From assembly GCA_964357005.1 (NCBI GenBank), contig CAYHJX010000002.1, positions 1 to 32,741 on the forward strand: a DNA stretch of 32,741 nucleotides, read 5' to 3'. Below the pieces are notes generated by a model. That model made no database searches. It was not told the origin of the DNA and saw nothing but the letters and a program-made list of their open reading frames with translations. Positions 13,330-27,547 of this stretch are shown one piece after another (position 1 is the stretch's first letter; every line of letters begins with the position of its first letter). The DNA comes from an uncultured Candidatus Saccharibacteria bacterium (GTDB lineage: Bacteria > Patescibacteriota > Minisyncoccia > Sungbacterales > HO2-52-23). A program made the position numbers and the translations under genes.

Positions 13330-13336
13330 GCATTTC

Positions 13337-13861: not shown

Positions 13862-13866
13862 CGACG

Positions 13867-15081: not shown

Positions 15082-15086
15082 GGAAA

Positions 15087-16172
15087 TCAGGAGAAAAATG
15101 CTGCAATATTTTTTTCGACAAGCGCCTCTGGCGATGCATGGCCACCATAGTAGTCCGTATACCAATTGACAGTGGTTCGAATGGCATCATCAATAACAAA
15201 CCGCGGCCTCCACCCCAAAAGGTCTCGGGCGCGTGAGGAATCCAATGTAAGAACTGGGGCTTCTCGCAATGATGCATCGGGAACAACTTCATATTCGCCT
15301 TTCCCGAGAATCGAAAAAACCTTTTTTACAACATCCTCTACGGAAACGAAACTTTCTTCGCTCGGACCGAAATTCCACGCGCCAACCGCCTTTGTATCGC
15401 CGGTATACAAGAGTTGCGAAAGAAGAAGATAGCCATGGAGCGGCTCAAGAACATACTGCCAGGGACGGATGGAAAGCGGGTTTCGTATCACTACTTTTTC
15501 TTTCTTTTCGTACACCGATCGAAGAATATCCGGGAAAAGACGGTCTTTTCCCCAATCGCCACCTCCAATAACATTTCCCGCGCGGACCACGGCGCCGAGC
15601 GTCCGATGTGTTTTTCCAAAATTATCAGGATGAAAATACGACTCTATGTAGGCGTTCGCGGCAATATCTGCTGCGGCCTTGCTCGCGCTATACGGATCAT
15701 GGCCCCCCAAAGGATTATTCTCCTTATACGGATCTGTTCCTTGAGAATCGTCATAGACCTTATCGGTTGTCACAACAACAAACGCGCGAAGTGACCCCGC
15801 TCTTCGCGCCGCCTCAAGAACATTCACCGTTCCCATGACATTGGTGGAAAACGTGGCAAGCGGATCTCGATATCCTTCCCTCACAAGCGGCTGCGCGGCA
15901 AGATGAAAAATAATCTCCGGCTTTTCCTTACGGAGAATATCGTACACAGGAATAAAATCCCGTATGTCAGCAAAATGATTCCTTATGTTTTCTCTGAGGC
16001 CTACCAGATCAAATAAATTCGGAGTGGTGTCTGGAAGAAGCGAAATCCCGGAAACGTCTGCGCCCCATCGGTGCAACACAGAAGCGAGCCACCCCCCCTT
16101 AAAGCCGGTATGCCCGGTGATGAGAATTTTTTTCCGGGCGAAAAATTTTTTCAATTCATCCATAGACATCAT
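15087..16172 (-). CDS. rfbG: CDP-glucose 4,6-dehydratase
   Basis: Motifs: KILITGHTGFKGGWLASVLHRWGADVSGISL, PYSASKAAADIAANAY (Y-x-x-x-K), RAGNVIGGGDW. I chose ATG 16172 as the start because it forms an ATGA overlap with the rfbF stop. The track GTG start at 16190, or ATG at 16181, 16169 or 16163, are also possible. Confidence 0.88.
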   Translation of the reverse strand: MMSMDELKKFFARKKILITGHTGFKGGWLASVLHRWGADVSGISLLPDTTPNLFDLVGLRENIRNHFADIRDFIPVYDILRKEKPEIIFHLAAQPLVREGYRDPLATFSTNVMGTVNVLEAARRAGSLRAFVVVTTDKVYDDSQGTDPYKENNPLGGHDPYSASKAAADIAANAYIESYFHPDNFGKTHRTLGAVVRAGNVIGGGDWGKDRLFPDILRSVYEKKEKVVIRNPLSIRPWQYVLEPLHGYLLLSQLLYTGDTKAVGAWNFGPSEESFVSVEDVVKKVFSILGKGEYEVVPDASLREAPVLTLDSSRARDLLGWRPRFVIDDAIRTTVNWYTDYYGGHASPEALVEKNIAAFFS

Positions 16173-16936
16173 GCTTCCCATACTGCCCACGGCCGCCCCT
16201 CACCCCACAACCGATTTAAATCCTCCATTTCCGTATAGGTATCCATTGACTTCCAAAATCCGGTATGCTCATACACGGAAAGCTCGTTATCCTGTATGAG
16301 CCGTGGAAACGCATTTTCCATGGGCCCGGCATCAAAATAGTCAAATGCTTTTTTGCTAAACACCATGAATCCGCCGTTTACGTAGTCATTCACCATTGGT
16401 TTTTGCTGGAATCCAGTCGCGCGCCTCGACGATCGATCAATCGTGATGATACCGTATTTCGAATACGGATGCACCGCAGTAAGCGTCGCAAGCGTACCCT
16501 GATTTCTATGAAATCGAACAAGATCCTGAATATCAATGTCACCGACCGCGTCGCCGTACGTCACCATAAATTCATCCTCGGTGATATATTTTTTCGTTTG
16601 CAAAAGTCGCTCGCCTGTGATGGTTTCAAGCCCTGTATCCGCGAACGTAATTTTAAAATCGTCGAAATTGCCCGTATTATGGAAATCAATTTCATTCCGC
16701 GCGTGATGAAGAGTAAAATCGTTTGAAAATGCCCGATGATTCAGGAAATATTCCTTTACCATGTTTCCTTTATACCCAAGAGCAAGCACAAAGCGACTAA
16801 ACCCATAATGGGAGTAAATCTTCATAATATGCCAGAGCATGGGTCGCCCCCCAATTTCCACCATTGGTTTTGGCTTGAATTCTGTTTCTTCCTTCATGCG
16901 GGTTCCTCGCCCGCCGCAGAGAATAATTGTCTTCAT
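16169..16936 (-). CDS. rfbF: Glucose-1-phosphate cytidylyltransferase
   Basis: 255-aa ORF. MKTIILCGGRGTRMKEETEFKPKPMVEIGGRPMLWHIMKIYSHYGFSRFVLALGYKG and the C-terminal HTGFWKSMDTYTEMEDLNRLW match my memory of RfbF/DdhA closely. Size is also typical. Confidence 0.92.
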   Translation of the reverse strand: MKTIILCGGRGTRMKEETEFKPKPMVEIGGRPMLWHIMKIYSHYGFSRFVLALGYKGNMVKEYFLNHRAFSNDFTLHHARNEIDFHNTGNFDDFKITFADTGLETITGERLLQTKKYITEDEFMVTYGDAVGDIDIQDLVRFHRNQGTLATLTAVHPYSKYGIITIDRSSRRATGFQQKPMVNDYVNGGFMVFSKKAFDYFDAGPMENAFPRLIQDNELSVYEHTGFWKSMDTYTEMEDLNRLWGEGRPWAVWEA

Positions 16937-16970: not shown

Positions 16971-17801
16971 TTACCGTGCAGTCCACCCGCCATCGATAAT
17001 AAGTGTCGCGCCCGTCATATAGGAAGAGGCCGCATGGGAGGCGAGAAAAAGGATTGCGCCGTTATATTCGTGGGGTTCTGCCATACGCCCCACAATGGTT
17101 CGCTTTGCATACTCTTTTTCGAAAACACCGTCTTGATGCGCCCGAACGCCGCCGGGAACAAGCGTATTTACGCGGATGGGAATTTTCTTGCTGCCGCAAT
17201 ACTCCGCAAGCCACCGCGTGAAATTAAGAACTCCCGATTTCGCAACACTATACGCCACAGGTTTATAGAAATCTTCACCGCCCCGCCTTCGAAACTCGTA
17301 GAGCGACTGGTCCGGAGCAACTACTCCGTAGTGAGAGGATATATTAATGATGCTTCCCTTTTTGCCTGTTGGACCGATACGCCGGAGAAACTCTTGTGAT
17401 ACAAAAAACATTCCTTTCAAATGCGAATCAATCACCAGATCCCACGCTCCTTCGGGGTAGTCCTCAAACGGACCGTTGTCTTCGGCAGGCGCATCCGGCC
17501 GGATATCAATGCCTGCATTATTTATAAGAATTGTCGGAGTGCCCCATTTTTCCTCGACCTCATCAAAACCTCGTTTCACATCGCTCTTTTTTGTGATATC
17601 GACAATATGAAGCGATGTGCGCCTCGCATCAATGAGAGGAGAAACAATATGATTCATTGCATGTTTGATATCAAAAATCGCGACTCCGGCTCCGGCGCTG
17701 GAAAGCGCTTGTACATACTGACTACCCAATAACCCAAGACCCCCGGTAACCACGGCGACTTCTCCCGTAAGATCACAATATGGTGGAGCTGTCTGCTTCA
17801 T
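16971..17801 (-). CDS. Short-chain dehydrogenase/reductase (classical SDR)
   Basis: 276-aa ORF. Motifs: VAVVTGGLGLLGSQ (T-G-x3-G-x-G), INNAGI, ISSHYG, YSVAKSGVLNFTRWLA (Y-x-x-x-K), IRVNTLVPGG. Confidence 0.85.
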   Translation of the reverse strand: MKQTAPPYCDLTGEVAVVTGGLGLLGSQYVQALSSAGAGVAIFDIKHAMNHIVSPLIDARRTSLHIVDITKKSDVKRGFDEVEEKWGTPTILINNAGIDIRPDAPAEDNGPFEDYPEGAWDLVIDSHLKGMFFVSQEFLRRIGPTGKKGSIINISSHYGVVAPDQSLYEFRRRGGEDFYKPVAYSVAKSGVLNFTRWLAEYCGSKKIPIRVNTLVPGGVRAHQDGVFEKEYAKRTIVGRMAEPHEYNGAILFLASHAASSYMTGATLIIDGGWTAR

Positions 17802-17807
17802 ACAGAA

Positions 17808-18563
17808 TCAAGAAAAAAACTCATTAGGGTTTTCTTTCCACCTCTCCCAAAGTTTCTCTGCAATAAAGAAATCAATCGGAGCATCTATGTCAATCGCGCG
17901 CGCCTGCGGAATCACGTGATACTTCACCCGCTCGCCGGTAAGAGAGTTAAAATCTTTTATCACCCGTGTCCAACAAGCAATGACATTCGCCCGGAAATAT
18001 GCTTTCGCATAATTTTGACGGAGACCCGGAGTAACATCGCGACTGCTCTCGGTGATATAGGTGACAAGGCGCGCGCCACCCCCGCCGTCATCAATAATCT
18101 TCATGGCTTTATGGGGATGCTGGCGCGCTTCGGCAACAACAAGCGAAGAATGCGTATCTGTATCTTCAATAAGCCGCCCGATACACTGGTCAATATCGCC
18201 TGATGTCTGGAACGGAGTCGTCGGCACAAGGCGAAGAACGATGTCAGGCGCATACCCTTCATTTTTCTCAAGCCATCCGAGCGCATGGATAATATATTCA
18301 AGATCCGTCGAGTGGTCGCCGGCAATCTCTTTGGGGCGCAAAAAAGGAACCTCTGCTCCATACCGCCTCGCGATCGCGGCATATTTCTCGGAATCAGTCG
18401 AAACGATTACGCGATTCACGTACTGAGAATTTCGCGCGGCTTCAATAATCCACGCCATGAGGGGTTTGCCCCCAAGTTCTTTTATATTTTTATCAGGCAC
18501 CCCCCGTGAACCGGAACGCGCGCCAACAAGAGCCAAAATTTTAAGGTGGAGATTTCTATCCAT
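17808..18563 (-). CDS. Acylneuraminate (CMP-nonulosonate/ulosonate) cytidylyltransferase family, copy 1
   Basis: 251-aa ORF. Motifs: ALVGARSGSRGVPDKNIKELGGKPLMAWIIEAA..VIVSTDSEKYAAIARRYGAEVPFLRPKEIAGDHS, the CTP_transf_3 signature. There is no C-terminal esterase domain. Confidence 0.85.
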   Translation of the reverse strand: MDRNLHLKILALVGARSGSRGVPDKNIKELGGKPLMAWIIEAARNSQYVNRVIVSTDSEKYAAIARRYGAEVPFLRPKEIAGDHSTDLEYIIHALGWLEKNEGYAPDIVLRLVPTTPFQTSGDIDQCIGRLIEDTDTHSSLVVAEARQHPHKAMKIIDDGGGGARLVTYITESSRDVTPGLRQNYAKAYFRANVIACWTRVIKDFNSLTGERVKYHVIPQARAIDIDAPIDFFIAEKLWERWKENPNEFFS

Positions 18564-18614: not shown

Positions 18615-19967
18615 TCAAATAAGCGAGTTGAGTGCGGCAAATACGCGCTCACCTGTTTTTCCGTCAATCGGCCCGACGAGATCCGATACGATCTGGGATC
18701 TCCCCTCTTTATGAAGCGCAGGATCGTGAAGATATCCCGTAACGGCATAGATCAATTCTGATTCAGTTTTGACCCTCCATACGCCTCCGGTCTTCTGGAC
18801 ATAGAGATAATGGGTCGTATGGTCAAGCGCAAACGAAAGACGGTTATGAAGAGGAACTTTCAAGTCGTCGGCTCCATTAAATCCAACAAGGACAACCGGC
18901 CTATTGAAAATTGCGGACTCAAGGGACATTGTAGATCCTAAATTTATGTTTACATCGGTCCAGCGCACAAGATTTAAAAGAAGCTTCATGTCTTCTTTTT
19001 GATACGTAAAGTTTTTTCCAAAATCGAGTATAGGCACTCCTTCGATCTTCTTGTCCGAACCCAAGGGATCAGTCGGATGCGCGCGCACCGCGAGAAGCGC
19101 ATGAGAAAACAACCCGCGCTCGCTTGCGCGCATAAGCATTTCAAGATGATCGGTATATGTTTCCTCGGCGAGAACAACCGTGGGAAGGCCTCCCGTATAA
19201 TACACAATCCACTTCTTTGTGGGGTCAAGTCCGATCATGCGCGCGGTTTCTTCCTTTGTCATGTGCCATGAAGAATCCCGATAGTGGGAAAACTGCGCAA
19301 ATCCGACTACCCGTATGCGCTCAGGAGAAACATCGTTCCACATGATTGCTTCGCGGCGCATAATTTCGTTTTGTACCAAGAGGATGTTGGGAATGATCCG
19401 CAAGAGCAATTTTGTGCTGAAATTGTCCCAGCTCCGCACCATGCCGACCGATGGAATACCCCTCCGTTTTGCCTGCTTTAAAAATATAGTATCCTCTTCA
19501 ATCATGAGCGACGGGGCAAATACCACATCGGGCCGATACCGATCAAAGTAGATCGCCCACACGCGATCTTCAAAAAAGAATCGGTATTCGATGAATCGCA
19601 GTATTTCCCGCCACACCTTTAGATGACCGAGAAACCAACAAAGACGCCTTCCCATAAACCCGGAAAAAGAACCCCCGCTCCGGTACGTTGCGAGCTGGCG
19701 AATCCACATGGATTCAGTCGGAATACTTGCAAGCGCGATCATGCGAAATATTTTTTTTGCGACTTGCCGATCCATTCCGAAATCCGGAACCGGTTCAACA
19801 ATACAGCGCTCATTCGCAAAATCTCTCCGATGGGTTTCCAAACTGTCTGGAGATACAAATACCACGAGCCGCACCGCAGGATCGTTCTTCACCAAGGAAT
19901 AAAAATCGCCCCGCAGGAAGTTTTTTACCTCCACATTATGAGGCGCGTTCAGAAAAAATGTCTTCAT
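18615..19967 (-). CDS. Unassigned GT-B-like protein, paralogue A of a three-member family (TagF / NeuC / sialyltransferase-like motifs)
   Basis: I trimmed the start to ATG 19967 (MKTFFLNAPH...), 4 nt after the NeuB-like stop. It is collinear with 24063..25433 and 26150..27547. Shared blocks: FDRYRPDVVF, AKRRGIPSVGMVRSWDNFS, LLVQNE, VVGF, GLDPTKK, RAHP (His codon 19077-19079), LGSTMSLESA, GPIDGKTGERV. Confidence 0.6.
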   Translation of the reverse strand: MKTFFLNAPHNVEVKNFLRGDFYSLVKNDPAVRLVVFVSPDSLETHRRDFANERCIVEPVPDFGMDRQVAKKIFRMIALASIPTESMWIRQLATYRSGGSFSGFMGRRLCWFLGHLKVWREILRFIEYRFFFEDRVWAIYFDRYRPDVVFAPSLMIEEDTIFLKQAKRRGIPSVGMVRSWDNFSTKLLLRIIPNILLVQNEIMRREAIMWNDVSPERIRVVGFAQFSHYRDSSWHMTKEETARMIGLDPTKKWIVYYTGGLPTVVLAEETYTDHLEMLMRASERGLFSHALLAVRAHPTDPLGSDKKIEGVPILDFGKNFTYQKEDMKLLLNLVRWTDVNINLGSTMSLESAIFNRPVVLVGFNGADDLKVPLHNRLSFALDHTTHYLYVQKTGGVWRVKTESELIYAVTGYLHDPALHKEGRSQIVSDLVGPIDGKTGERVFAALNSLI

Positions 19968-19971
19968 GCCA

Positions 19972-21069
19972 CTAGCGAGGCCAGTTGAGAGCGTCTTCCG
20001 GCAGATGGGTATCTTCTTCAATGTCTGCCTGCGCGACGCGACCAATCACATCATAGATCAAACTTGGTTTGATACCGTGACCCGGTCCTTTTACCGCAAG
20101 AAGATCGGCCGTGATTACTGTCCCGATGGGAATTCTTGTCCGCGCCACAATGCTTTTTGCGAGTTTCTCGCGAAGCGGTTTCAGCTCCGAATAAAATATC
20201 TTCTCTCCCGATCCTTTAATCTTCTCAACCATCCGAATCGACGCCACCAGCTCTTTGAATTGATGTGGTTCAAGCGATGCCGCGTGGTCCGATCCTTTCA
20301 TTGTTTTATCGAGGGTCAAATGTCTCTCGACAATCTGGGCGCTTCGGGAGACCGCAACGAGCGTGGGCAAAAGTCCCATTTCATGTCCGGAATATCCGAC
20401 TGGAAGAGGAGTAAACCGTTCGCGAAGCGCGCCCATAAAGCGGACGTCAATCTTATCGTCCGGACACGGATATAATGAAACACAGTGAAAAATAATAAGG
20501 CGATTATTGTGCCGCAAAATCGCGCCAACAGCATCATCAATCTCGTCAAGCGTACTCATGCCGGTCGACAGAAGAACCGGCTTCCCTTTTTTCGAAACAT
20601 ACTCGAGAAGCGGAACATTAATGACATCAGCTGAAGGAATCTTATACGCATCAACACCCAACCGCTCCATGAAATCGGCGCTCTTCGGGTCCCACACGCT
20701 TGCAAAAAAAAGAATCCCTCGCTCTTCGGCATAGCGCTTCAATTCCCGGTAGTCCGACTCTGAAAATTCAAGCTTATTTCGATGCTCTCCGTACGTGGGA
20801 GCAAATGCGTTAGGAGAGGCATAGGGCTTTTCTAATCCCTCTTTCGTTAAAATTTCATCGGTCGTCCGCTTCTGGAATTTTACCGCATCCGCGCCAGCAT
20901 CCTTTGCTGCACCAATAAGCTGCTTCGCAATAGCGACATCCCCATTGTGATTGATGCCAACTTCCGCTATGACAAATACCGGCTCCCCGGGTCCGACGTA
21001 CTGCGTTCCTATTTTTACCTTTGGAGGAAGACCTCGAAGGATTGTGTGTATTTTTTCCCTGATATTCAT
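19972..21069 (-). CDS. NeuB-family nonulosonate synthase with SAF domain; resembles the sugar-phosphate-condensing (animal NANS / KDN-9-P synthase) type
   Basis: 365-aa ORF. Motifs: PVFVIAEVGINHNGDVAIAKQLIGAAKDAGADAVKFQKR, then EKPYASPNAFAPTYGEHRNKLEFSESDYRELKRYAEERGILFFAS..GKPVLLSTGMS..VGYSGHE..VERHLTLDKTMKGSDHAASLEP. As far as I recall, these blocks track human NANS nearly column for column. The C-terminal SAF-like part reads KSIVARTRIPIGTVIT. Confidence 0.88.
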   Translation of the reverse strand: MNIREKIHTILRGLPPKVKIGTQYVGPGEPVFVIAEVGINHNGDVAIAKQLIGAAKDAGADAVKFQKRTTDEILTKEGLEKPYASPNAFAPTYGEHRNKLEFSESDYRELKRYAEERGILFFASVWDPKSADFMERLGVDAYKIPSADVINVPLLEYVSKKGKPVLLSTGMSTLDEIDDAVGAILRHNNRLIIFHCVSLYPCPDDKIDVRFMGALRERFTPLPVGYSGHEMGLLPTLVAVSRSAQIVERHLTLDKTMKGSDHAASLEPHQFKELVASIRMVEKIKGSGEKIFYSELKPLREKLAKSIVARTRIPIGTVITADLLAVKGPGHGIKPSLIYDVIGRVAQADIEEDTHLPEDALNWPR

Positions 21070-21178
21070 GCTTTGGTTTTCTGCTCTTGTATAATAAAAC
21101 AGAGGGCGCAGAGAAAAGGTTTTCGGTGGCGCTTATTCAGCATGCATGTGCGCCTTCTCATGCATACGCTATACGCTC

Positions 21179-21763
21179 CTATTCATTTATTTTAGCCAAA
21201 AGCCGCAGCCCGTCCACAATGGTACGCGAATCATTCAATGCATTGTGCGGAGGGCGGACAAGCGCTTCCCCAAACGCGGTTACAATCGTGCCGCTTGTAT
21301 AGGAATACGCCGGAATTCCTCGCGCATCGAACAGAGCACGTATATCTTTGAATCGCATACGATCAAATGGAAATGGGATTTCACAAAGCCGGCAATTTTC
21401 CTCCAACACTTCGGCATCTGATCCGAACGAATAAAGATCATGCGTTCCTGCCCAGGAAAAAAATCGTGTTATCGCATCAGAAAAATCAACGCCTTCGTGA
21501 TCAATTGTATGCTGCGTAATACCGGTAAGACGAGAAAAATAATCTGAAAGTTCTGGATTTCTTTTTGGTTTTATAAAGACATCAAACGAGGCCTTTTCTG
21601 AATAGACCCGGGTATCAAGAAGTACTGCGCCGATCTGGACAATCTCACGGTATTCCCCGGGCCTCTTCCATTTCGCTTCCCGACTGCCTTCCCATGCAGT
21701 ATACTCCGTGTCAAAAACGACAATAGTCGGAGATGAAAAAAGGAGAGCGGGCGTCATTCTCAC
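21179..21763 (-). CDS. DEDDh 3'-5' exonuclease domain protein (KapD / ERI-1-like)
   Basis: 194-aa ORF. Exo I is VVFDTEYT (D-x-E). Then EIVQIGAV. The Exo II-like block is YSFGSDAEVLEENC. Exo III is HNALNDSRTI (H-x4-D). The start is either GTG 21763 or ATG 21757. Confidence 0.7.
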   Translation of the reverse strand: MRMTPALLFSSPTIVVFDTEYTAWEGSREAKWKRPGEYREIVQIGAVLLDTRVYSEKASFDVFIKPKRNPELSDYFSRLTGITQHTIDHEGVDFSDAITRFFSWAGTHDLYSFGSDAEVLEENCRLCEIPFPFDRMRFKDIRALFDARGIPAYSYTSGTIVTAFGEALVRPPHNALNDSRTIVDGLRLLAKINE

Positions 21764-21772
21764 ACAAGGGTA

Positions 21773-22339
21773 TTAGCGAAGCGAAAGAGTAAGAACATCA
21801 ACCCCTTTTGCTTCAAGAATCACATTTGCAAGATCACGAATTGCGCCGTCTCCTCCGTTTCGCTTTGCTATGAAGTGAACTCGCTTTTTTATGGTGTCTT
21901 CGGCCTGCTGTGGAGCCGCGGCAAGTCCGACTTTTCCGAGAATCTCATAGTCAGAAAGATCATCGCCCATATATGCACATTCGTCCCAGAGAATTCCATT
22001 CGCCTCAAGCCACGCGCCGAGAGAAACGACTTTATCTTTACCCTGCGGACCAGTAAAAATTCCCACCGGAGGCCAGCGGCCTTCACGAACCGACGGAAGC
22101 TCATTTAATTTCTTTCCTACTGCCTCGACAAAACCGGTTTTCTCGCCGCTCACAAACGCAATGAACACTCCCGCGTCTCGAAGAAGCGAAATTCCTTGTC
22201 CGTCAACGTGGCTCCTTTCTTTCAGCACCTCGCCCCGATCAGGATCCATAAACACCCTTCCGGTAAAAAGCACACCGTCGCCATCAAACGCAACTGCTCG
22301 AATTTTTTTTGCACGCCTAGTAAGCTCTACGCTTGCCAT
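21773..22339 (-). CDS. HAD-IIIA phosphatase of the KdsC type (ulosonate/nonulosonate-phosphate phosphatase)
   Basis: 188-aa ORF. Motifs: AVAFDGDGVLF (D-x-D nucleophile motif), HVDGQGISLLRDAGVFIAFVSGEK, GPQGKDKV, AYMGDDLSDYEILGKVGLAAAPQQAED. These are the four HAD motifs in KdsC order. It overlaps the upstream cytidylyltransferase gene by 13 nt. Confidence 0.85.
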   Translation of the reverse strand: MASVELTRRAKKIRAVAFDGDGVLFTGRVFMDPDRGEVLKERSHVDGQGISLLRDAGVFIAFVSGEKTGFVEAVGKKLNELPSVREGRWPPVGIFTGPQGKDKVVSLGAWLEANGILWDECAYMGDDLSDYEILGKVGLAAAPQQAEDTIKKRVHFIAKRNGGDGAIRDLANVILEAKGVDVLTLSLR

Positions 22340-23097
22340 GATTCTTTTCCTTTTTCTTGTAAAGATCGAATCACTTCTTCAGCCCATCGAAGCTCTTTTA
22401 TCGAATCAATGTCAATATCGCGCCACTCCTGAAATACCAAAGGTAAAATCCTAGTTCCACTCATGGAATTTCTTTTTACAATTACTTCGGGCCGGACAAC
22501 ATCAACATACCCTGAATGCCGATGCACTTTTGGAAGGAGCTGCCGAGGCATATTAAACGCCTCCGGGTACTTCTGAAATACGTCCGGATACACGCTTGTC
22601 AAAAGCGGTTTCAGAAATTTTTCTCCTTCATCCAGCATATACATTTTAAACGGAGTATGGAGCGGAGAGCACACCGAACGCACTGACGTCGCATCAGGAT
22701 TTTCCAAAAGCAGTTGAATTCCTGTATCGATATCCGCAGATGATTTAAGAGGCGTTGTCGGACGGAGATGAACCACCGCATCTGGCTCGTATCCTTCTTT
22801 CTCTTTAAGAAATGTAAGCGCATGCTGAAACACCGGCAAATCAGGAGTCGAGTCCTGGGCTAATTCTTTGGGGCGCATAAAAGGCACTTCCACGTCCAAT
22901 TTCCGCGCTATACTGGCAATCTTTTCATTGTCGGTTGAAATAATCAAGCGCGAAATAAGCCGCGAATGCTGTGCGGCCATAACCGTGTAGTATAGAAGTG
23001 GCTTTCCCGCGCAAGGATAAATATTTTTCTCCGGAATCGATTTCGAATCCCCCCGCGCAAGAATTACCCCAAGGACTTCTTTCCTTTTCCCCGCCAT
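22327..23097 (-). CDS. Acylneuraminate cytidylyltransferase family, copy 2
   Basis: 256-aa ORF. Motifs: GVILARGDSKSIPEKNIYPCAGKPLLYYTVMAA..LIISTDNEKIASIARKLDVEVPFMRPKELAQDST. It is collinear with copy 1 at 17808..18563 but clearly diverged from it. Confidence 0.85.
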   Translation of the reverse strand: MAGKRKEVLGVILARGDSKSIPEKNIYPCAGKPLLYYTVMAAQHSRLISRLIISTDNEKIASIARKLDVEVPFMRPKELAQDSTPDLPVFQHALTFLKEKEGYEPDAVVHLRPTTPLKSSADIDTGIQLLLENPDATSVRSVCSPLHTPFKMYMLDEGEKFLKPLLTSVYPDVFQKYPEAFNMPRQLLPKVHRHSGYVDVVRPEVIVKRNSMSGTRILPLVFQEWRDIDIDSIKELRWAEEVIRSLQEKGKESWQA

Positions 23098-23144: not shown

Positions 23145-23170
23145 CCAAAAAAGCGAGCCAAGGGCCCGCT
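23145..23170 (-). terminator. Candidate intrinsic terminator directly after the 264-aa membrane protein gene
   Basis: The minus-strand transcript reads AGCGGGCC-CTT-GGCTCGCT: an 8-bp GC-rich stem with 1 mismatch (plus-strand arms 23152-23159 and 23163-23170). TTTTTGG follows. The hairpin begins at the base after the TAG stop (23171-23173). Confidence 0.45.
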
Positions 23171-23965
23171 CTAGATTACACGTAAAACCTTAAACTGTTC
23201 GTAATACTCATACATGCCCCAGTACCAAAGATAGATCGCGTTTCCGACAAGCACATTGAATCCGAGACCGGCGTTACGCAGCCACCATTCGAAACTTCCA
23301 AATCCGCCGTGAAGCATAATGCTTGCCCAAAACCATATAACAAGTGCGTTTGAAAAAATACCCTTAAGGAAAAAAGATCGAGGATAGTGCACGCCCTTCG
23401 TACGGATGGTTTCCAGGTCGAGAAGAATCCAGCGAAATACAATCACAGTAGCCACAATCGCGCTTATCACCTCAAACCCCCAACCAGGGCCAAATAGCGA
23501 ATAATCCAGTTGGCGCAAAAATCCGATAAGAAGCCCAAGGAAAACCGCACACGCTGAAAAAAGAATTCGTGCGATTACTGCACTCGCTGTGAGTTTCCAG
23601 TATGACCTCAATCCCTCGCCGATCTGCCATCCGATAACCGAGAGAAGCAGGAGTTGCATCCAAAACCAACTCTGGCTTACGCCGCCGATCATCCATGCGC
23701 CAACATTAATAGAAAGAAGCAACGCCCAATGGATGAAATCGTATATGCGAGCTTCGATATTTACCTTCTCGCCATCACGAATGGCAAGTAACAAATCGAA
23801 CTGTCCTGAAAGAATCACGAGAATACCAACCGGAGGAATCCAAAACGCAATCGCATGAAAAGTAACGAAACTCCATATCTTCTCAACAGAAACGATGACG
23901 TATATACAAAGGACAATAAGCCCACTCCAGTATGCAGAGCTGAGCACGCGTTTTACTGTTTGCAC
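23171..23965 (-). CDS. Hypothetical polytopic membrane protein (about 8 helices), no family recognised
   Basis: 264-aa ORF with a GTG start at 23965, preceded by GGGAGGGG. It is Trp-rich and hydrophobic (…WFWMQLLLLSVIGWQIG…, …ALVIWFWASIMLHGGFGSFEWW…). I could not find a diagnostic motif. Confidence 0.6.
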   Translation of the reverse strand: MQTVKRVLSSAYWSGLIVLCIYVIVSVEKIWSFVTFHAIAFWIPPVGILVILSGQFDLLLAIRDGEKVNIEARIYDFIHWALLLSINVGAWMIGGVSQSWFWMQLLLLSVIGWQIGEGLRSYWKLTASAVIARILFSACAVFLGLLIGFLRQLDYSLFGPGWGFEVISAIVATVIVFRWILLDLETIRTKGVHYPRSFFLKGIFSNALVIWFWASIMLHGGFGSFEWWLRNAGLGFNVLVGNAIYLWYWGMYEYYEQFKVLRVI

Positions 23966-24062: not shown

Positions 24063-25433
24063 TCATTTTTGAATAAGCGTATGTACTGCATCGGCAATAC
24101 GCTTCCCCGAATCTCCTTCGTAAGGAGCAAGAAATTCTTTTATGAGGCACGTGCGCCCGTCTGCATCCTTCCGGGGGTTCTCCAAATATGCGTTGATTGC
24201 TTCCGCAAGTGCGCCTTCGCTGTCTGCGGCCCGAACACCGCCGGTTGCCATCATGGCTTCATAGTGCGTGTAGTGATGCCGGAACCGCCGCGCCGATATC
24301 CAATAGTTCACGCGTGTTTTTTCAAATGCGGCTGATAGTGCCGGCTTGCCGAGCGCAACCGCATCAAGCGCCATGGTGGATCCGGACGTAATCACCATCT
24401 CGCTATGAACAATTGAATTTACCAGATGCTTCATTTCCTCTTCCCCCATCTCCCAACTATCCACCTGGGAGGAAAGATATACTGCATTGCGATCAGGTAT
24501 GACGTGGCGGAATGACTTCATCCGCTCGAGCGGGCTTTGAAACGCGGGATGCGCGCGAAATACCATAACAAGATCCTGCGGAATTTTTTTTGATTCGACA
24601 AGCGCCTCAAACACATCCGCAATCTCGCCCTCTTTTGGGAATAAAAAGTCGCCCATAGCGCCAAACAAAATCATTCGTTTTTTCGGATCAATGCCGAGTT
24701 TTTGCAAAAATGCATCACGCGGCAAAATCCATTCGTTCCTGAAATACCAATCATTTTGCGGAAATCCGACCACTTCAAACATCTCCGGCATCAAAAAATG
24801 ATATGTCATTCCCATTCGCTTTAAATACTCATTTTGCAAAAGCATTCGGTCGGGCACTACGCGCAAAAACCCGTGCGACGTGAAATTATCCCATCCGCGG
24901 AGCATCGCAATTGTAGGAATTTTGCGACGCTTGGCCTCGCGAAGCATCGCGACATCAATTTCCGGATGAATTGCAACGGTTGAAAACAAAAGATCGGGCC
25001 CATAGCGATCAAAAAGCGCCCGCACTGTCGGAAGCTGCTTTCGCATAAGTTCTATCCGGCGAACAAGCACTTGAATAGTTTTTGATCTGCCGAATGCGTG
25101 CCACAAGAATCGCTTGAACATAAGCGCGAGAAAACTTCCGCCGTCATGTCTCTGGCGCATCTGATTGAAGGTTGTTGTTCCGGTTTGGAATGCGTTTCGC
25201 GAAATAAATGCAAGCGCTTTCTCGAGAAATCCCGGCGCGACATACGGAAGTTCTTCAACCGTTATATCCTTCCCGAAAAATTCTTTTGCATACTGCTCCT
25301 TTTTCAAAGATGCGGTAACCAGTACAATGCGGAAATTTCTTTCCGCATTGATGTAATTCCAAAAAGATCCGCGAAGCACGTTTCGTGCGGCAGACGCCTC
25401 TGGAACAGTAATAAAGATTGTTTTCTTCGGCAC
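24063..25433 (-). CDS. Unassigned GT-B-like protein, paralogue B
   Basis: 456-aa ORF with a GTG start 4 nt after the upstream stop. Blocks: FDRYGPDLLF, AKRRKIPTIAMLRGWDNFTS, LLQNEYL, VVGFPQNDWY, GIDPKKRMILFGAMG, FRAHP (His codon 24549-24551), ITSGSTMALDAVALGKP, YLENPRKDADGR, APYEGDSGKRI. Confidence 0.6.
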   Translation of the reverse strand: MPKKTIFITVPEASAARNVLRGSFWNYINAERNFRIVLVTASLKKEQYAKEFFGKDITVEELPYVAPGFLEKALAFISRNAFQTGTTTFNQMRQRHDGGSFLALMFKRFLWHAFGRSKTIQVLVRRIELMRKQLPTVRALFDRYGPDLLFSTVAIHPEIDVAMLREAKRRKIPTIAMLRGWDNFTSHGFLRVVPDRMLLQNEYLKRMGMTYHFLMPEMFEVVGFPQNDWYFRNEWILPRDAFLQKLGIDPKKRMILFGAMGDFLFPKEGEIADVFEALVESKKIPQDLVMVFRAHPAFQSPLERMKSFRHVIPDRNAVYLSSQVDSWEMGEEEMKHLVNSIVHSEMVITSGSTMALDAVALGKPALSAAFEKTRVNYWISARRFRHHYTHYEAMMATGGVRAADSEGALAEAINAYLENPRKDADGRTCLIKEFLAPYEGDSGKRIADAVHTLIQK

Positions 25434-25437
25434 AAAG

Positions 25438-26121
25438 TCAGCTCTTCTTGATTACAAAATATTTTCTTGCTTTTTCGTCATAATCAATGCGGTACGGCGT
25501 CCCTCGAAAGAATTCATCAATTGCTTTTGTGGCTCCGGGCCATCGGGGACTTTTGTATTCGTCGAACAAGATTACGCCCCCGTTGGCAACTTGTGGAAAG
25601 AATTTCTTAAGCACCGCGCGATACGACTCATAGAGATCCACATCAATATGCAACAGTGCAATGGGGCCGCCATCGTACGAATCAACCGTATTCTCAAAAA
25701 ATCCCTTAACGAGCCTCACGTTCTTTGTGAGAAATACGGGGGAAATCCTCGCGGTCATCAAAATCTGCTTAATATCGTCAATTGATGTCCCTGACCATTC
25801 TCCTTTCTTTGGATTACGGACACTATCGTCTTCTTTTGCTGGTTCGGGAAAACCCTCAAACGAATCAAAACCCCACACCATGCGATTCCGCCCCTCCATT
25901 TCAGCAAACGAAGAAAGGAATAAAAATGTTGTCCCTCTCCCTACTCCGCATTCAACAATAGCCCCATCGACAGCTCGGATATTCTCATACATCTTTCCCA
26001 TATACAGAATCTGCGTGATTCGCCGTACCGTAAGGGGAATTTCCTTTTCGGAACTTTTTTTCACATCATATCCAAATGCACCAATAACTTTCTTGATTAT
26101 CTTTTTTAGCATCATACGCAC
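25438..26121 (-). CDS. TylF / macrocin-O-methyltransferase family SAM-dependent (sugar) O-methyltransferase
   Basis: 227-aa ORF. Motifs: GAIVECGVGRGTTFLFLSS, VWGFDSFEGFPEP, LLHIDVDLYESYRAVLKKFFPQVANGGVILFDEY. These are the metal-binding D-x-D and SAM motifs typical of the TylF/NovP class. Confidence 0.8.
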   Translation of the reverse strand: MRMMLKKIIKKVIGAFGYDVKKSSEKEIPLTVRRITQILYMGKMYENIRAVDGAIVECGVGRGTTFLFLSSFAEMEGRNRMVWGFDSFEGFPEPAKEDDSVRNPKKGEWSGTSIDDIKQILMTARISPVFLTKNVRLVKGFFENTVDSYDGGPIALLHIDVDLYESYRAVLKKFFPQVANGGVILFDEYKSPRWPGATKAIDEFFRGTPYRIDYDEKARKYFVIKKS

Positions 26122-26149
26122 ATCGTATTGTTACATGGAAACCGCATCA

Positions 26150-27547
26150 TTACACCAATGAAAGAATAAAATGTGTCAGCCGCTCGGACGATTTTCCATC
26201 AAAGGGCTCGATAAACCGCTCTCGGATGCAATCCCGCCCCCCGAGATCCTTTTGGGGATTTTCCAAGTAGGTACGTATTGCATCCGCTAACTCACGCTCG
26301 GAATGCGGGCGCCGCATGCCGCCGCAGTTTCCCACTTCTTCCCAGTCAAAACACATGCCTCCATGAACTTTCGCTAAATAACGCCCGTAGGGAAACTTTT
26401 TTCTCCCTTCAAACGCAAACGCTATGACCGGCTTTCCAAACGCAATAGCATCGAGAATAATCGTTCCCGATGTGGTAAGCAACAACTCGCTATGATACAA
26501 AGAATTTATTTGGTGAGAAATATCAGACAAATCTTCTTTTGGTTGTCCGGCGCGCGGGATCTTGCTTGCGCGCACTTCATCCGCAACCACATGGCGCAAT
26601 GGCTTCAGACGGCTCAACGAAAAATTGTAATACGGGTGGTTACGAAAAATAAATACGAGATCGGATGGCAACACGCCCTTCTCGACCATATCATCGAGCA
26701 TCTCGGCAAGAGAAACCTCCAACTCATGCAAAATTCCGCCTACCGCGCCAAACAGTATAACCCGTTTCGAAGAATCTATTCCAAATCGTTTTAAAAATTC
26801 ATCACGGGGCGCCAATAGCTCTTTATCCGCATACCAATCATAGTGCGGAAAACCAGTGATAACAACTCTGTCCGCGGGGAAAAAATTATATTGCACGGCC
26901 ATTTCCTTAACATACATGCTGGGAACAACCATATAATCCGGATGCATCAACATGAAACCAATGTTGCTTAACGCGTCCCACCCGCGAATACCCGCAATCG
27001 TCTTAATTCTTCTGCGTTTAGCTTCACAAAGCACAGGTACGTCATATGACGTACTCGCAATATTGGTACTTAAAACAAGTACGGGATTATATCTATCAAA
27101 AATTTCTATAATATACTTATAAGCAGGAATATGCGACACTCGCTCGCGCACAATTCTCTGAATTATCCTCGCAAGGGGCCGCCAAGTTCCAAACGTATAG
27201 GCAATGATCCTGTGCAACACTATACGATAGAGCGGCACACGGGAAATGTGACGCTCTACAAGGCGATGCCATGCGCGACTCAACTTTTGATGAAACGCCG
27301 AGCGGGAAAGAGAAATTAACATCTCAAAATATTTGGAGGTTTTCACTCGGGGAATAGCGACTATGTCTGCACCTGCGCCCCCGAATTCCGATCGGTATCC
27401 GGCTTCTTCCGCTTTCGAGACAATCAAAACGACTTTCACATCCGGGCGTTTTGCAAGCTCTGCCACAAAACCGCTCCGCAAAAAATATCGCGGTATCATC
27501 GGTCCTCCTGCAGTAGAAATAAAAATAACCTTTTTTTGTGTATCCAT
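26150..27547 (-). CDS. Unassigned GT-B-like protein, paralogue C
   Basis: 465-aa ORF with ATG 4 nt after the ABC gene stop. Blocks: FDRYNPVLVLS, AKRRRIKTIAGIRGWDALS, ITGFPHYDWY, GIDSSKRVILFGAVG, FRNHP (His codon 26636-26638), TTSGTIILDAIAFGKP, YLENPQKDLGGR, EPFDGKSSERL. Confidence 0.6.
   Translation of the reverse strand: MDTQKKVIFISTAGGPMIPRYFLRSGFVAELAKRPDVKVVLIVSKAEEAGYRSEFGGAGADIVAIPRVKTSKYFEMLISLSRSAFHQKLSRAWHRLVERHISRVPLYRIVLHRIIAYTFGTWRPLARIIQRIVRERVSHIPAYKYIIEIFDRYNPVLVLSTNIASTSYDVPVLCEAKRRRIKTIAGIRGWDALSNIGFMLMHPDYMVVPSMYVKEMAVQYNFFPADRVVITGFPHYDWYADKELLAPRDEFLKRFGIDSSKRVILFGAVGGILHELEVSLAEMLDDMVEKGVLPSDLVFIFRNHPYYNFSLSRLKPLRHVVADEVRASKIPRAGQPKEDLSDISHQINSLYHSELLLTTSGTIILDAIAFGKPVIAFAFEGRKKFPYGRYLAKVHGGMCFDWEEVGNCGGMRRPHSERELADAIRTYLENPQKDLGGRDCIRERFIEPFDGKSSERLTHFILSLV

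What the first reader, a model, noticed from the sequence alone, without database searches (positions are those of the whole stretch)
19972..23097. Animal-type (sugar-phosphate) nonulosonate synthase paired with a KdsC-type phosphatase and its own cytidylyltransferase
The NeuB homologue at 19972..21069 matches the vertebrate NANS / Bacteroides KDN-9-P synthase style more closely than classical bacterial NeuB. Examples are the blocks EKPY.S....YGEH...LEFS...YREL.RYAEE and LDKT.KGSDH.ASLEP. This is a by-memory alignment.

Two genes upstream lies a KdsC-family HAD phosphatase (21773..22339), which overlaps a NeuA-like cytidylyltransferase (22327..23097). The known precedent for NeuB-like + KdsC-like + CMP-synthetase is the KDN route in Bacteroides thetaiotaomicron: Man-6-P + PEP gives KDN-9-P, then KDN, then CMP-KDN. 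The vertebrate NANS/NANP logic is analogous.

This predicts a 9-phosphate route to KDN or Neu5Ac. It would run in parallel to a separate Pse-type synthase in the same operon.
Basis: partly seen in the sequence, partly recalled or inferred. Interest (0 to 1): 0.65.

Follow-up and report, generated by a model that had tools for sequence, protein, structure and literature searches.

The report
Animal-type sialic acid module in CPR bacterium
A tiny-celled candidate-phyla-radiation bacterium carries a gene set that most likely makes a sialic-acid-type sugar (probably KDN) by the phosphorylated route used by animals and Bacteroides, and the same module turns out to be common in uncultured bacteria and archaea.

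Summary
ORF 19972..21069(-) is a NeuB+SAF synthase. It is 42% identical to human NANS over 341 residues with one gap (289 bits), against 31% for N. meningitidis NeuB (165 bits) and 33% for Bacteroides BT1714 (186 bits).

A neighbour-joining tree puts it with all four characterised sugar-6-phosphate enzymes (human and mouse NANS, BT1714, Prymnesium Kdn-9-P synthetase). NeuB, SpsE and PseI fall outside (300/300 bootstraps). It carries the clade signatures KFQKR, TYGEHR..LE, KGSDH, Asp148 for NmNeuB Glu134, and Gly328 for NmNeuB Arg314.

The 188-aa HAD protein at 21773..22339(-) has intact catalytic motifs. It has Glu in the motif SGEK, as BT1713 does at Glu56, where true KdsC has Arg. It lacks the BT1713 Arg64 equivalent and has a 14-residue insertion.

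Among 36 related loci, 21 have a phosphatase within 3.5 kb of the synthase. Three unrelated phosphatase types fill this role, which argues that dephosphorylation belongs to the pathway.

PMI-like cupins sit in some relatives' modules, once fused to the phosphatase. No ManNAc-supply genes were seen. Both points favour KDN over Neu5Ac, but the sugar is not shown.

The host is a Patescibacteria bacterium, so a KDO/LPS role is unlikely.

The parts
19972..21069 (-). NANS-type (sugar-6-phosphate) nonulosonate-9-phosphate synthase, 365 aa, NeuB TIM-barrel plus SAF domain
   Evidence: Pfam NeuB 268.6 and SAF 38.1 bits. NCBIfam NeuB_NnaB 329 bits, below the 399.65 cut-off, as are NANS (302) and BT1714 (239). 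42% identity and 289 bits to human NANS. Groups with the sugar-6-P enzymes in 300/300 bootstraps. Matches 12 of 16 clade-specific positions.
21773..22339 (-). KdsC-fold (type C0 HAD) phosphatase, 188 aa; proposed nonulosonate-9-phosphate phosphatase. Belongs to a divergent CPR subfamily with a 14-aa insertion (ELPSVREGRWPPVG).
   Evidence: KdsC/YrbI models 87-89 bits and BT KDN-9-P phosphatase model 80 bits, all below cut-off. Best PDB match 3mn1, 87 bits. Intact DGDGV, SGEK, K and GDDLSD motifs. Glu at the BT1713 Glu56 position, no Arg64 equivalent. A phosphatase lies within 3.5 kb of the synthase in 21 of 36 related loci.
22327..23097 (-). CMP-nonulosonate synthetase (CT2), 256 aa; overlaps the phosphatase start by 13 nt
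   Evidence: PF02348 61 bits; PseF model 121 bits, below the 205 cut-off. CTs upstream of phosphatase-synthase in the closest relatives are CT2-type, 44-68% identical.
21179..21763 (-). DEDD (RNase_T / KapD-like) 3'-5' exonuclease-like ORF lying between phosphatase and synthase. Probably a passenger gene, not part of the pathway.
   Evidence: PF00929 56.5 bits, KapD 53 bits. No homologue in any related locus compared.
18615..19967 (-). TagF-like / BFO_1060-like glycosyltransferase; proposed CMP-nonulosonate-dependent transferase. The likely ATG at 19967 is 4 nt after the synthase stop.
   Evidence: NCBIfam BFO_1060_trans 34.5 bits, weak. This GT family is within 3.5 kb of the synthase in 19 of 36 relatives, typically as GT-CT-phosphatase-synthase. 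Start inferred.
17808..18563 (-). Second CMP-nonulosonate synthetase (CT1), 251 aa; 36% identical to CT2
   Evidence: PF02348 81.5 bits, PseF model 134 bits below the 205 cut-off. The same synthase-GT-CT1 order occurs in L005. CT1-type is the only nearby CT in L018, L019, L022 and L027.
16971..17801 (-). Short-chain dehydrogenase adjacent to CT1. A recurrent neighbour of the module.
   Evidence: adh_short_C2 132 bits; NF006619 148 bits below the 255 cut-off. An SDR lies within 3.5 kb of the synthase in 7 of 36 relatives.
30727..31800 (-). Pseudaminic acid synthase PseI: the second, classical nonulosonate synthase of the cluster
   Evidence: TIGR03586 PseI 432 bits, above the 340 cut-off. 269 bits to C. 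jejuni PseI, PDB 8h2c.
24063..27547 (-). Two more TagF-like glycosyltransferases (24063..25433 and 26150..27547) flanking a TylF-type O-methyltransferase (25438..26121)
   Evidence: Glyphos_transf 22.7 and 44.7 bits; TylF 97.7 bits.
27552..29117 (-). MsbA/PglK-like ABC exporter
   Evidence: ABC_tran and ABC_membrane; HepA/MsbA/PglK models 250-303 bits, below cut-offs.
23150..23172 (-). Terminator-like hairpin (10 bp stem) between the upstream membrane-protein gene and CT2. Possibly marks the start of a separate CT2-phosphatase-exo-synthase-GT transcription unit.
   Evidence: The scan as a whole is not above shuffled expectation (11 sites against 7.9 +/- 3.1), so this is only a hint.

Best explanation
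The window comes from a Patescibacteria (CPR) bacterium. It holds a cell-surface glycan island with a complete make-activate-transfer module for a sialic-acid-type sugar, run through a 9-phosphate intermediate.

**Proposed steps (all inferred; no step has been assayed):**
1. The NANS-type synthase (19972..21069) condenses PEP with a hexose-6-phosphate. Most likely this is mannose-6-phosphate, giving KDN-9-P. Less likely it is ManNAc-6-P, giving Neu5Ac-9-P.
2. The KdsC-fold HAD phosphatase (21773..22339) removes the 9-phosphate.
3. The translationally coupled cytidylyltransferase CT2 (22327..23097) forms the CMP-sugar.
4. The TagF-like transferase immediately downstream of the synthase (18615..19967) adds the sugar to a surface glycoconjugate. 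That product is further methylated and exported by the neighbouring methyltransferase and ABC exporter.

A separate PseI (30727..31800) and a second cytidylyltransferase (CT1) supply pseudaminic acid in parallel.

**Shown:** family membership, clade placement, signature residues, conserved synteny and the recurrent phosphatase.

**Inferred:** the phosphorylated substrate, which sugar is made, the phosphatase's substrate, and which cytidylyltransferase serves which synthase.
For: **Synthase**
- 42% identity and 289 bits to verified human NANS, against 165 bits to NmNeuB.
- Neighbour-joining split {NmNeuB, SpsE, CjPseI, window PseI} | {human and mouse NANS, BT1714, P. parvum Kdn-9-PS, window, 24 relatives} in 300/300 bootstraps.
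- Shared motifs KFQKR, TYGEH[RK]xxLE and KG[ST]DH.
- 12 of 16 positions that separate phospho-type from non-phospho-type enzymes match the phospho type. These include the added basic residues K49, K67, H96, R97 and K258.
- Asp148 replaces NmNeuB Glu134, and Gly328 replaces Arg314. These are the two differences that PMC8208679 notes for eukaryotic and archaeal synthases, with Glu134 lying near the expected phosphate position.
- Like NANS, BT1714 and the P. parvum enzyme, it scores below the NCBIfam NeuB cut-off, which NmNeuB essentially meets.

**Phosphatase**
- Catalytic motifs are intact.
- Every synthase-linked KdsC-like protein has Glu at the BT1713 Glu56 position. The KdsC-type PDB sequences have Arg.

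**Context in 36 unique relatives with synthase >=51% identical**
- 21 have a phosphatase within 3.5 kb: 13 KdsC-like, 6 His_Phos_1, 4 HAD-IA.
- With both flanks >=3.5 kb available, the figure is 15 of 20.
- 24 phosphatase hits fall among 235 near genes, against 2 among 188 genes more than 5 kb away.
- L007 and L008 have KdsC-like copies with a degenerate DxD motif, and both also carry a His_Phos_1 gene.
- L029 has a CT+KdsC fusion.

**KDN rather than Neu5Ac**
- PMI-like cupins sit beside the synthase in L019-L022. In L035 one is fused to the phosphatase.
- No NeuC, ROK or NanE gene is in the window or in the sampled neighbours.

**Host**
- All named hits to the window's transketolase are CPR bacteria.
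Against: - No enzyme of this prokaryotic clade, apart from BT1714, has been assayed.
- The phosphatase falls below the cut-offs of both the KdsC and the BT1713 models, so HMMs do not discriminate.
- It lacks the equivalent of BT1713 Arg64, the carboxylate-binding Arg recalled from Lu 2009 and Daughtry 2013.
- The window itself has no PMI-like cupin.
- The nearest characterised enzyme, NANS, mainly makes Neu5Ac-9-P.
- The residue aligned with human Met42, the KDN determinant named in the title of Hao 2006 cited in PMC6200933, is Ala. That is uninformative.
- 15 of 36 relatives show no phosphatase nearby.
- The tree has only four non-phospho outgroups and no LegI, and it uses neighbour-joining only.
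- An unrelated exonuclease-like gene interrupts the module.
- Two cytidylyltransferases flank the synthase, so the CT assignment rests on synteny alone.
Confidence: 0.72

Rival explanations
1. The route and gene roles are the same, but the substrate is ManNAc-6-phosphate. The product would then be Neu5Ac, true animal-type sialic acid, rather than KDN.
For: Overall similarity is highest to animal NANS (289 bits), whose main activity is Neu5Ac-9-P synthesis, and not to the KDN-specific BT1714 (186 bits) or P. parvum enzyme (157 bits). YSGHE and ASLEP are shared with NANS but not with BT1714. The phosphatase chemistry would be identical.
Against: [quoted passage not shown] PMI-like cupins, one fused to the phosphatase, point to Man-6-P in relatives. 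Human NANS also makes KDN-9-P (Hao 2006 and Nakata 2000, as cited in PMC6200933 and PMC8208679).
Confidence: 0.2
2. The synthase is an ordinary non-phosphorylated NeuB/LegI-type enzyme. The HAD protein would then be an unrelated housekeeping phosphatase (KDO-8-P or another) that merely lies nearby.
For: Its best NCBIfam model is NeuB_NnaB (329 bits). The phosphatase scores slightly higher on KdsC models (87-89 bits) than on the BT KDN-9-P phosphatase model (80 bits). 15 of 36 relatives lack a nearby phosphatase.
Against: The synthase is below the NeuB equivalog cut-off, as are NANS and BT1714. It separates from NmNeuB, SpsE and PseI in 300/300 bootstraps. It lacks NmNeuB Arg314, shown essential for ManNAc-using NeuB (Joseph 2013, cited in PMC8208679). 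Three non-homologous phosphatase families recur in the same slot. The phosphatase has Glu where KdsC has Arg. The host is a CPR bacterium, a group without LPS or KDO by established knowledge, and no kdsA or kdsB is in the window.
Confidence: 0.04
3. The synthase uses some other 6-phosphorylated hexose, for example a differently configured or aminated sugar phosphate. It would yield a so-far-undescribed nonulosonate, later tailored by the recurrent SDR and methyltransferases.
For: An SDR (7 of 36 loci) and methyltransferases (18 loci in cluster 3; TylF in 5) recur in the module. The phosphatase subfamily is divergent, with an insertion and no Arg64 equivalent. Two distinct CT types associate with this synthase clade.
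Against: There is no positive evidence for any particular alternative substrate. All characterised clade members use Man-6-P or ManNAc-6-P. O-methylated KDN is known in bacterial polysaccharides (own knowledge), so the tailoring genes are compatible with KDN.
Confidence: 0.08

Closest known systems
Bacteroides thetaiotaomicron CMP-KDN pathway (BT1714 KDN-9-P synthase, BT1713 KDN-9-P phosphatase; Wang et al. 2008, as cited in PMC6200933)
   Same: It is a bacterial cluster with a NeuB+SAF synthase adjacent to a KdsC-fold C0 HAD phosphatase (L085). It belongs to the same synthase clade, with TYGEH and KG[ST]D motifs and no Arg314. The phosphatase has Glu in the motif (S/T)GEK.
   Different: The synthases are only 33% identical (186 bits). 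BT1714 groups with Flavobacteriales (97% bootstrap), not with the CPR group. The window phosphatase has a 14-aa insertion, lacks the Arg64 equivalent, and scores 80 bits against the 180 cut-off of the BT1713 model. The host is a CPR bacterium and the module includes a TagF-like transferase.
Animal sialic acid pathway: NANS (Neu5Ac-9-P / KDN-9-P synthase), NANP, CMAS
   Same: NANS is the nearest characterised synthase: 42% identity over the full length with one gap, and shared KFQK, TYGEH(K/R)xLEF, YSGHE and KGSDHxASLEP. The logic is the same: synthase, then phosphatase, then CMP activation. The window phosphatase also matches the KdsC-like C-terminal domain of mouse CMAS (3ewi, 68 bits). Relatives have CT+KdsC fusions analogous to CMAS (L029).
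   Different: The phosphatase is of KdsC type, not NANP type. Even the HAD-IA phosphatases of relatives show no specific similarity to the recalled human NANP sequence. There is no GNE-like epimerase/kinase. The genes are arranged as a prokaryotic operon. The position of animals within the clade is unresolved.
[quoted passage not shown]
   Same: It is a characterised Man-6-P-specific member of the same clade, with the TYGAHR and WKGTDHAASLEP motifs.
   Different: The algal enzyme lacks the SAF domain (312 aa) and has no identified dedicated phosphatase. It is 37% identical over 262 aa.
Classical bacterial NeuB / PseI / LegI (N. meningitidis NeuB 1XUZ; C. jejuni PseI 8H2C)
   Same: It has the same fold and the same PEP- and metal-binding residues (E36, K64, K143, H229, E248, H250 by alignment).
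   Different: It has Asp for Glu134, Gly for Arg314 and extra basic residues. Scores are 165 bits (NeuB) and 117 bits (PseI), and the enzymes fall on the other side of a 100% bootstrap split.

Membership tests
NeuB superfamily (PEP-condensing nonulosonate synthases) | NeuB TIM-barrel domain plus C-terminal SAF/antifreeze-like domain, with metal- and PEP-binding residues conserved | tested here: met
   PF03102 268.6 bits and PF08666 38.1 bits. Equivalents of NmNeuB E25, K53, K129, H215, E234 and H236 are present as E36, K64, K143, H229, E248 and H250.
Sugar-6-phosphate-type synthases (NANS / KDN-9-P synthase clade) | Phylogenetic grouping with characterised sugar-6-P-using enzymes, to the exclusion of free-sugar-using NeuB and PseI | tested here: met
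   The split was recovered in 300/300 neighbour-joining bootstraps, with human and mouse NANS, BT1714 and P. parvum Kdn-9-PS on the window's side. Caveat: only four outgroups, and no LegI.
Sugar-6-phosphate-type synthases (NANS / KDN-9-P synthase clade) | Clade signature residues: KFQK(R), TYG(E/A)H(K/R)xxLE, KG(S/T)D, and loss of NmNeuB Arg314 | tested here: met
   All are present in the window protein. 12 of 16 discriminating columns match the phospho type. D148 replaces NmNeuB E134 and is invariant in 35 family members.
Sugar-6-phosphate-type synthases (NANS / KDN-9-P synthase clade) | Catalytic use of Man-6-P and/or ManNAc-6-P with release of a 9-phosphorylated product | not testable with these tools
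   This needs enzymology. It is supported only indirectly, by recurrent adjacent phosphatases.
Classical NeuB (NCBIfam TIGR03569 equivalog) | Score at or above the curated cut-off of 399.65 bits | tested here: not met
   The window scores 329.3 bits. NmNeuB, as a truncated PDB-derived sequence, scores 399.5; NANS scores 302 and BT1714 scores 239.
KDN-9-P phosphatase (BT1713 type; NCBIfam NF058599) | Type C0 HAD fold with the four catalytic motifs (DxD, S/T, K, GDDxxD) | tested here: met
   The motifs FDGDGV, VSGEK, GKDK and GDDLSD are aligned with BT1713 and with KdsC structures.
KDN-9-P phosphatase (BT1713 type; NCBIfam NF058599) | Glu at the BT1713 Glu56 position, where KdsC has Arg. This is the lineage marker recalled from Lu 2009 and Daughtry 2013; the papers are not held. 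| tested here: met
   The window has SGEK. All 20 synthase-linked homologues from the window and related loci in the alignment have Glu. 3mn1, 7t35 and 4nav have Arg.
KDN-9-P phosphatase (BT1713 type; NCBIfam NF058599) | Conserved carboxylate-binding Arg (BT1713 Arg64; recalled from the same papers) | tested here: not met
   The window-type subfamily has Val, Ala or another residue at that column and a 14-aa insertion just after it. The compact subgroup keeps the Arg.
KDN-9-P phosphatase (BT1713 type; NCBIfam NF058599) | Score at or above the equivalog cut-off of 180 bits | tested here: not met
   It scores 79.9 bits. It also falls below KdsC NF007019 (89.3 against 208) and TIGR01670 (86.7 against 106.95).
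CMP-nonulosonate synthetases (PF02348) | CTP_transf_3 domain and adjacency to a nonulosonate synthase | tested here: met
   CT2 scores 61.3 bits and CT1 81.5 bits. Both are below the PseF equivalog cut-off. Synteny with the synthase is seen in 24 of 36 relatives. Sugar specificity is not testable here.

The most novel reading that the evidence does not exclude
The window may represent a large, largely unrecognised prokaryotic clade of animal-type (9-phosphate) sialic acid synthases. At least 582 species-level genomes carry it: CPR bacteria, Chloroflexota, several archaeal phyla, Desulfovibrionaceae and Bacteroidota. In this clade the dephosphorylation step would have been reinvented at least three times.

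This would contradict the published view that no bacterial synthases group with eukaryotic NanS. It would also leave open that the eukaryotic NANS/CMAS-type pathway descends from such a prokaryotic module, and that ultra-small episymbiotic bacteria coat themselves with KDN or Neu5Ac made the 'animal' way.
Probability: 0.3. Interest if true: 0.7.

Novelty: new member of a known kind. Interest (0 to 1): 0.5.

Why it matters
The phosphorylated route to sialic acids is usually presented as an animal trait with one bacterial exception, Bacteroides KDN. A large 2021 phylogeny (PMC8208679) reported no bacterial synthases grouping with eukaryotic NanS.

This window and its relatives suggest otherwise. 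The NANS-type route appears to be a common, modular surface-glycan pathway in uncultured lineages, including host-dependent CPR bacteria and archaea.

It offers three things:
- concrete enzymes to assay for KDN or Neu5Ac production;
- a natural experiment in non-orthologous phosphatase replacement;
- candidate residues for phosphate recognition in NANS, for which no full-length structure was found in the PDB search.

It also bears on annotation. These genes are currently labelled generic 'N-acetylneuraminate synthase family', 'SpsE' or 'KdsC'.

Tried and rejected
**HMM classification of the phosphatase.** The KdsC and BT1713 models score about equally and all fall below cut-off. This does not discriminate.

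**Human NANS Met42 determinant of KDN activity.** The window has Ala and the position varies across the family. It is uninformative.

**Are the HAD-IA phosphatases of relatives NANP-like?** There is no significant similarity to the human NANP sequence. That sequence was recalled and not verified.

**Is the exonuclease-like ORF part of the module?** No homologue was found in any related locus, so it is treated as a passenger.

**Operon boundaries from promoter and terminator scans.** Counts are not above shuffled expectation. Only one good hairpin was found, upstream of CT2.

**Primary papers.** Attempts to read Wang 2008, Hao 2006, Lu 2009 and Daughtry 2013 failed because they are not held. 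One PMC id guessed from memory returned an unrelated paper. Statements about BT1713 Glu56 and Arg64 therefore rest on my memory of those papers.

**Direct look-up of BT1713's genomic locus.** It was solved through the cluster representative P0140, giving L085.

**Position of animal NANS inside the clade.** Unresolved; tested groupings have 2-22% bootstrap. No claim is made about the direction of transfer.

**ManNAc-supply genes.** Pfam scans of about 30 unannotated neighbours in relatives found none. They found methyltransferases, GT2, aminotransferase, GFO/IDH oxidoreductases, a polysialyltransferase-like GT and a pyruvyl transferase.

Full report
**1. What is in the sequence**

From about 9.3 kb to the end of the window, all long ORFs lie on the minus strand. 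The three ORFs of the finding are real and sit at the stated coordinates.

- **Synthase, 19972..21069.** It encodes 365 aa with NeuB and SAF domains (268.6 and 38.1 bits).
- **Phosphatase, 21773..22339.** It encodes a 188-aa KdsC-family HAD protein.
- **Cytidylyltransferase CT2, 22327..23097.** It encodes a 256-aa CTP_transf_3 protein, and its stop overlaps the phosphatase start by 13 nt.
- **Exonuclease-like ORF, 21179..21763.** This DEDD/RNase_T-type ORF lies between phosphatase and synthase.

The surrounding island contains:
- a true PseI (30727..31800; 432 bits against a 340 cut-off);
- a PIG-L deacetylase;
- an MsbA/PglK-like ABC exporter;
- a TylF O-methyltransferase;
- four TagF/BFO_1060-like glycosyltransferases;
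- a second cytidylyltransferase (CT1, 17808..18563) next to an SDR;
- a CDP-glucose-based deoxysugar pathway.

**2. Is the synthase 'animal-type'?**

I checked my recollection of human NANS by exact look-up. It is SIAS_HUMAN / NP_061819.2. I then recovered two further characterised enzymes.

- **BT1714.** This is the 346-aa NeuB+SAF gene immediately upstream of a 99%-identical BT1713 in L085. It is named sialic acid synthase [B. thetaiotaomicron].
- **P. parvum Kdn-9-P synthetase.** I took it from the supplement of PMC6200933 and confirmed it as a P. parvum protein.

BLASTP scores for the window synthase:

| Subject | Identity | Bits |
|---|---|---|
| human NANS | 41.6% (341 aa, one gap) | 289 |
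| mouse NANS | not noted | 283 |
| BT1714 | 32.9% | 186 |
| N. meningitidis NeuB | 31.0% | 165 |
| P. parvum enzyme (no SAF domain) | 37.4% | 157 |
| the window's own PseI | not noted | 147 |
| B. subtilis SpsE | not noted | 144 |
| C. jejuni PseI | not noted | 117 |

In a MAFFT alignment, all four characterised sugar-6-phosphate enzymes, the window protein and 24 relatives share K(F)QK(R), TYG(E/A)H(K/R)xxLE and KG(S/T)D. NeuB, SpsE and PseI lack these motifs. In addition, the window shares YSGHE and ASLEP with NANS.

Sixteen alignment columns separate the four phospho-type enzymes from the four non-phospho references. The window matches the phospho type at 12 of them, including the added basic residues K49, K67, H96, R97 and K258.

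Two further differences stand out. The residue aligned with NmNeuB Glu134 is Asp148, which is invariant in 35 family members. The residue aligned with Arg314 is Gly328. PMC8208679 singles out exactly these two positions as differing in eukaryotic and archaeal synthases. It notes that Glu134 lies near where the ManNAc-6-P phosphate would sit, and that Arg314 is essential in ManNAc-using NeuB.

A neighbour-joining bootstrap of 300 replicates recovers one split in 100% of replicates. On one side are NmNeuB, SpsE, CjPseI and the window PseI. On the other are all NANS-like sequences. BT1714 groups with Flavobacteriales (97%). The position of animal NANS inside the clade is unresolved.

Against NCBIfam's NeuB model (cut-off 399.65), the scores are: NmNeuB 399.5, window 329, NANS 302, BT1714 239, and relatives 325-365.

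The protein is NANS-like. By overall score it is barely closer to BT1714 than to classical NeuB.

**3. The phosphatase**

HMM scores do not discriminate. The KdsC models give 87-89 bits and the BT1713 model gives 80 bits, all below cut-off. The catalytic motifs are intact.

I aligned the window protein with BT1713, three KdsC-type PDB sequences, and every KdsC-like protein found in the related loci. Every synthase-linked protein has Glu at the BT1713 Glu56 position, in motif 2 (S/T)xE. The KdsC references have Arg there. From my memory of Lu 2009 and Daughtry 2013, Glu56 is the marker of the KDN-9-P phosphatase lineage. Those papers are not held, so this is recalled rather than checked.

The window protein belongs to a CPR-specific subgroup. 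This subgroup has a 14-residue insertion (LPSVxxGxWPP) and lacks the equivalent of BT1713 Arg64. It is therefore not a member of the BT1713 equivalog. I treat it as a divergent relative that probably does the same job.

**4. Comparative context**

The synthase family is large.
- Homologues at 63-80% identity come mostly from Patescibacteria MAGs.
- A scan of one genome per GTDB species found 582 relatives.
- The best 80 span Patescibacteria, Chloroflexota, several archaeal phyla, Desulfovibrionaceae and Flavobacteriales.

I called ORFs in all loci and compared them. Among 36 unique loci whose synthase is >=51% identical:
- 24 have a cytidylyltransferase within 3.5 kb;
- 19 have a TagF-like GT within 3.5 kb;
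- 21 have a phosphatase within 3.5 kb.

The usual gene order is GT - CT - phosphatase - synthase.

The phosphatase slot is filled by three unrelated families:
- KdsC-type HAD, 13 loci;
- histidine phosphatase His_Phos_1, 6 loci (first seen in L001; Pfam 107.6 bits);
- HAD-IA type, 4 loci.

Where both flanks are at least 3.5 kb, 15 of 20 loci have a phosphatase. Phosphatase hits account for 24 of 235 near genes, against 2 of 188 genes more than 5 kb away.

In L007 and L008 the KdsC-like copy has a degenerate DxD motif (FPSIGV, FDSYGV), and a His_Phos_1 gene sits beside it. L029 has a CT+KdsC fusion.

This non-orthologous displacement is the strongest indirect evidence that the synthase product is phosphorylated. 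In the closest relatives, the CT upstream of phosphatase-synthase is CT2-type (44-68% identical). The synthase-GT-CT1 order of the window recurs in L005.

**5. Which sugar?**

Small cupins lie next to the synthase in L019, L020, L021 (two copies) and L022. Their only family hits are to the mannose-6-phosphate isomerase domain: PF01050 at 25.4 bits in L019, and the C-terminal PMI part of TIGR01479. These hits are weak.

In the Methanophagaceae locus L035, such a cupin is fused to the KdsC-type phosphatase. That locus reads polysialyltransferase-like GT - CT - synthase - phosphatase/cupin.

No UDP-GlcNAc 2-epimerase, ROK kinase or NanE was found in the window or among about 30 sampled neighbours.

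This favours Man-6-P and therefore KDN. However, the window has no such cupin, the PMI hits are weak, and the nearest characterised enzyme is primarily a Neu5Ac-9-P synthase. I put KDN at roughly 2:1 over Neu5Ac.

**6. Host and the KDO rival**

All named relatives of the window's transketolase are CPR bacteria: Sungbacteria, Harrisonbacteria, Kaiserbacteria, Giovannonibacteria and Curtissbacteria. By established knowledge these organisms lack an outer membrane and LPS. The window has no kdsA or kdsB. A KDO-8-P role for the phosphatase is therefore unlikely.

**7. Comparison with what is known, and novelty**

The pathway logic is already known in three systems:
- B. thetaiotaomicron (KDN);
- animals (NANS/NANP/CMAS);
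- P. parvum (PMC6200933).

The window is a new member of this kind in a new lineage. Its synthase is unusually close to animal NANS, and its phosphatase belongs to a divergent subfamily.

I found no paper linking nonulosonic acids with Patescibacteria. PMC8208679 states that no bacterial synthases grouped with eukaryotic NanS. The size and breadth of the prokaryotic NANS-type clade, and the three-fold phosphatase replacement, are the parts a specialist might find new. Neither is biochemically demonstrated.

**8. Limits**

- The tree uses neighbour-joining only.
- There are only four non-phospho outgroups, and no LegI.
- No structural model with coordinates was available to place the basic residues.
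- The Glu56 and Arg64 roles come from memory.
- ORFs in the related loci were called by a simple longest-ORF rule.
- The substrate, the product and the CT assignment are inferences.

Noticed in passing
window 21179..21763 (-): A DEDDh-type 3'-5' exonuclease-like gene (RNase_T 56.5 bits; KapD-like 53 bits) sits between the phosphatase and the synthase. The motifs FDTEYT and HNALND look intact by eye. It is 9 nt after the phosphatase stop. No homologue occurs in any related locus compared. Its role in a sugar operon is unexplained.
   Followed up: partly
window 11715..16936 (-): A CDP-hexose pathway lies here: glucose-1-P cytidylyltransferase (275 bits, cut-off 300.25), CDP-glucose 4,6-dehydratase (428 bits, passes its cut-off), a sugar C-methyltransferase (PF08421/PF08484), an RmlC-like epimerase, an RmlD-like reductase and a CmcI-type O-methyltransferase. 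Together they predict a C- and O-methylated CDP-6-deoxyhexose (branched-chain sugar) in a CPR bacterium.
   Followed up: no
L042, L048, L050-L058, L064, L067-L069, L072-L081 (Desulfovibrionaceae and relatives), synthase near 10001..11050 where the full flank was fetched: NANS-like synthases 42-50% identical to the window's have a quite different conserved context. A winged-helix (MarR-like) protein of about 210 aa lies immediately upstream. A 316-331-aa gene lies downstream, and in some loci it is a CheW-receiver protein. Usually there is no cytidylyltransferase or phosphatase nearby. The function of this orphan synthase is unexplained.
   Followed up: partly
L035:8012-8872 (+) and L035:5168-6271 (+) (Candidatus Methanophagaceae archaeon): A single 286-aa protein fuses a KdsC-type phosphatase (TIGR01670 182 bits; BT KDN-9-P phosphatase model 169 against a 180 cut-off) to a PMI-like cupin. 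The same module has an alpha-2,8-polysialyltransferase-like gene (PF07388, 40 bits). This looks like an archaeal KDN or sialic acid polymer locus.
   Followed up: partly
L007:7140-7691, L008:8468-9040 and the adjacent His_Phos_1 genes: These KdsC-like copies have lost one or both catalytic Asp residues (FPSIGV, FDSYGV), and each sits beside a histidine-phosphatase gene. This looks like phosphatase replacement caught in progress.
   Followed up: partly
window 16971..18563 (-); also L015, L018, L083, L059, L044, L039: An SDR, with best NCBIfam hit NF006619 (PRK09186), recurs next to a CMP-nonulosonate synthetase and the NANS-like synthase. From memory, this pairing resembles Campylobacter ptmA-ptmB. 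In L018 the SDR and CT hits fall in one called ORF. Its role in the pathway is unknown.
   Followed up: partly
window 5880..8006 (-): The transketolase ORF is probably over-extended at its 5' end. Homologues of 620-650 aa cover only about 89% of the 708-aa ORF. Its 3' end overlaps the convergent PMT_2 gene (4457..5905) by 26 nt.
   Followed up: no
window 23171..23965 (-) and 29347..30711 (-): The first is a 264-aa multi-pass membrane protein with no family match. The region has an unusual AT skew (0.26). The second is a 454-aa protein with only faint TagF/BFO_1060-like and 'surface carbohydrate biosynthesis' hits. It may be a fourth transferase of the island.
   Followed up: partly
window 32522..32741 (-): An open reading frame (79 codons, ending ...ARVLIKGKLHEEKS*) runs in from the window edge just upstream of the PIG-L gene. 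The rest of the Pse pathway (PseB, PseC, PseG, PseH) may lie beyond the window.
   Followed up: no
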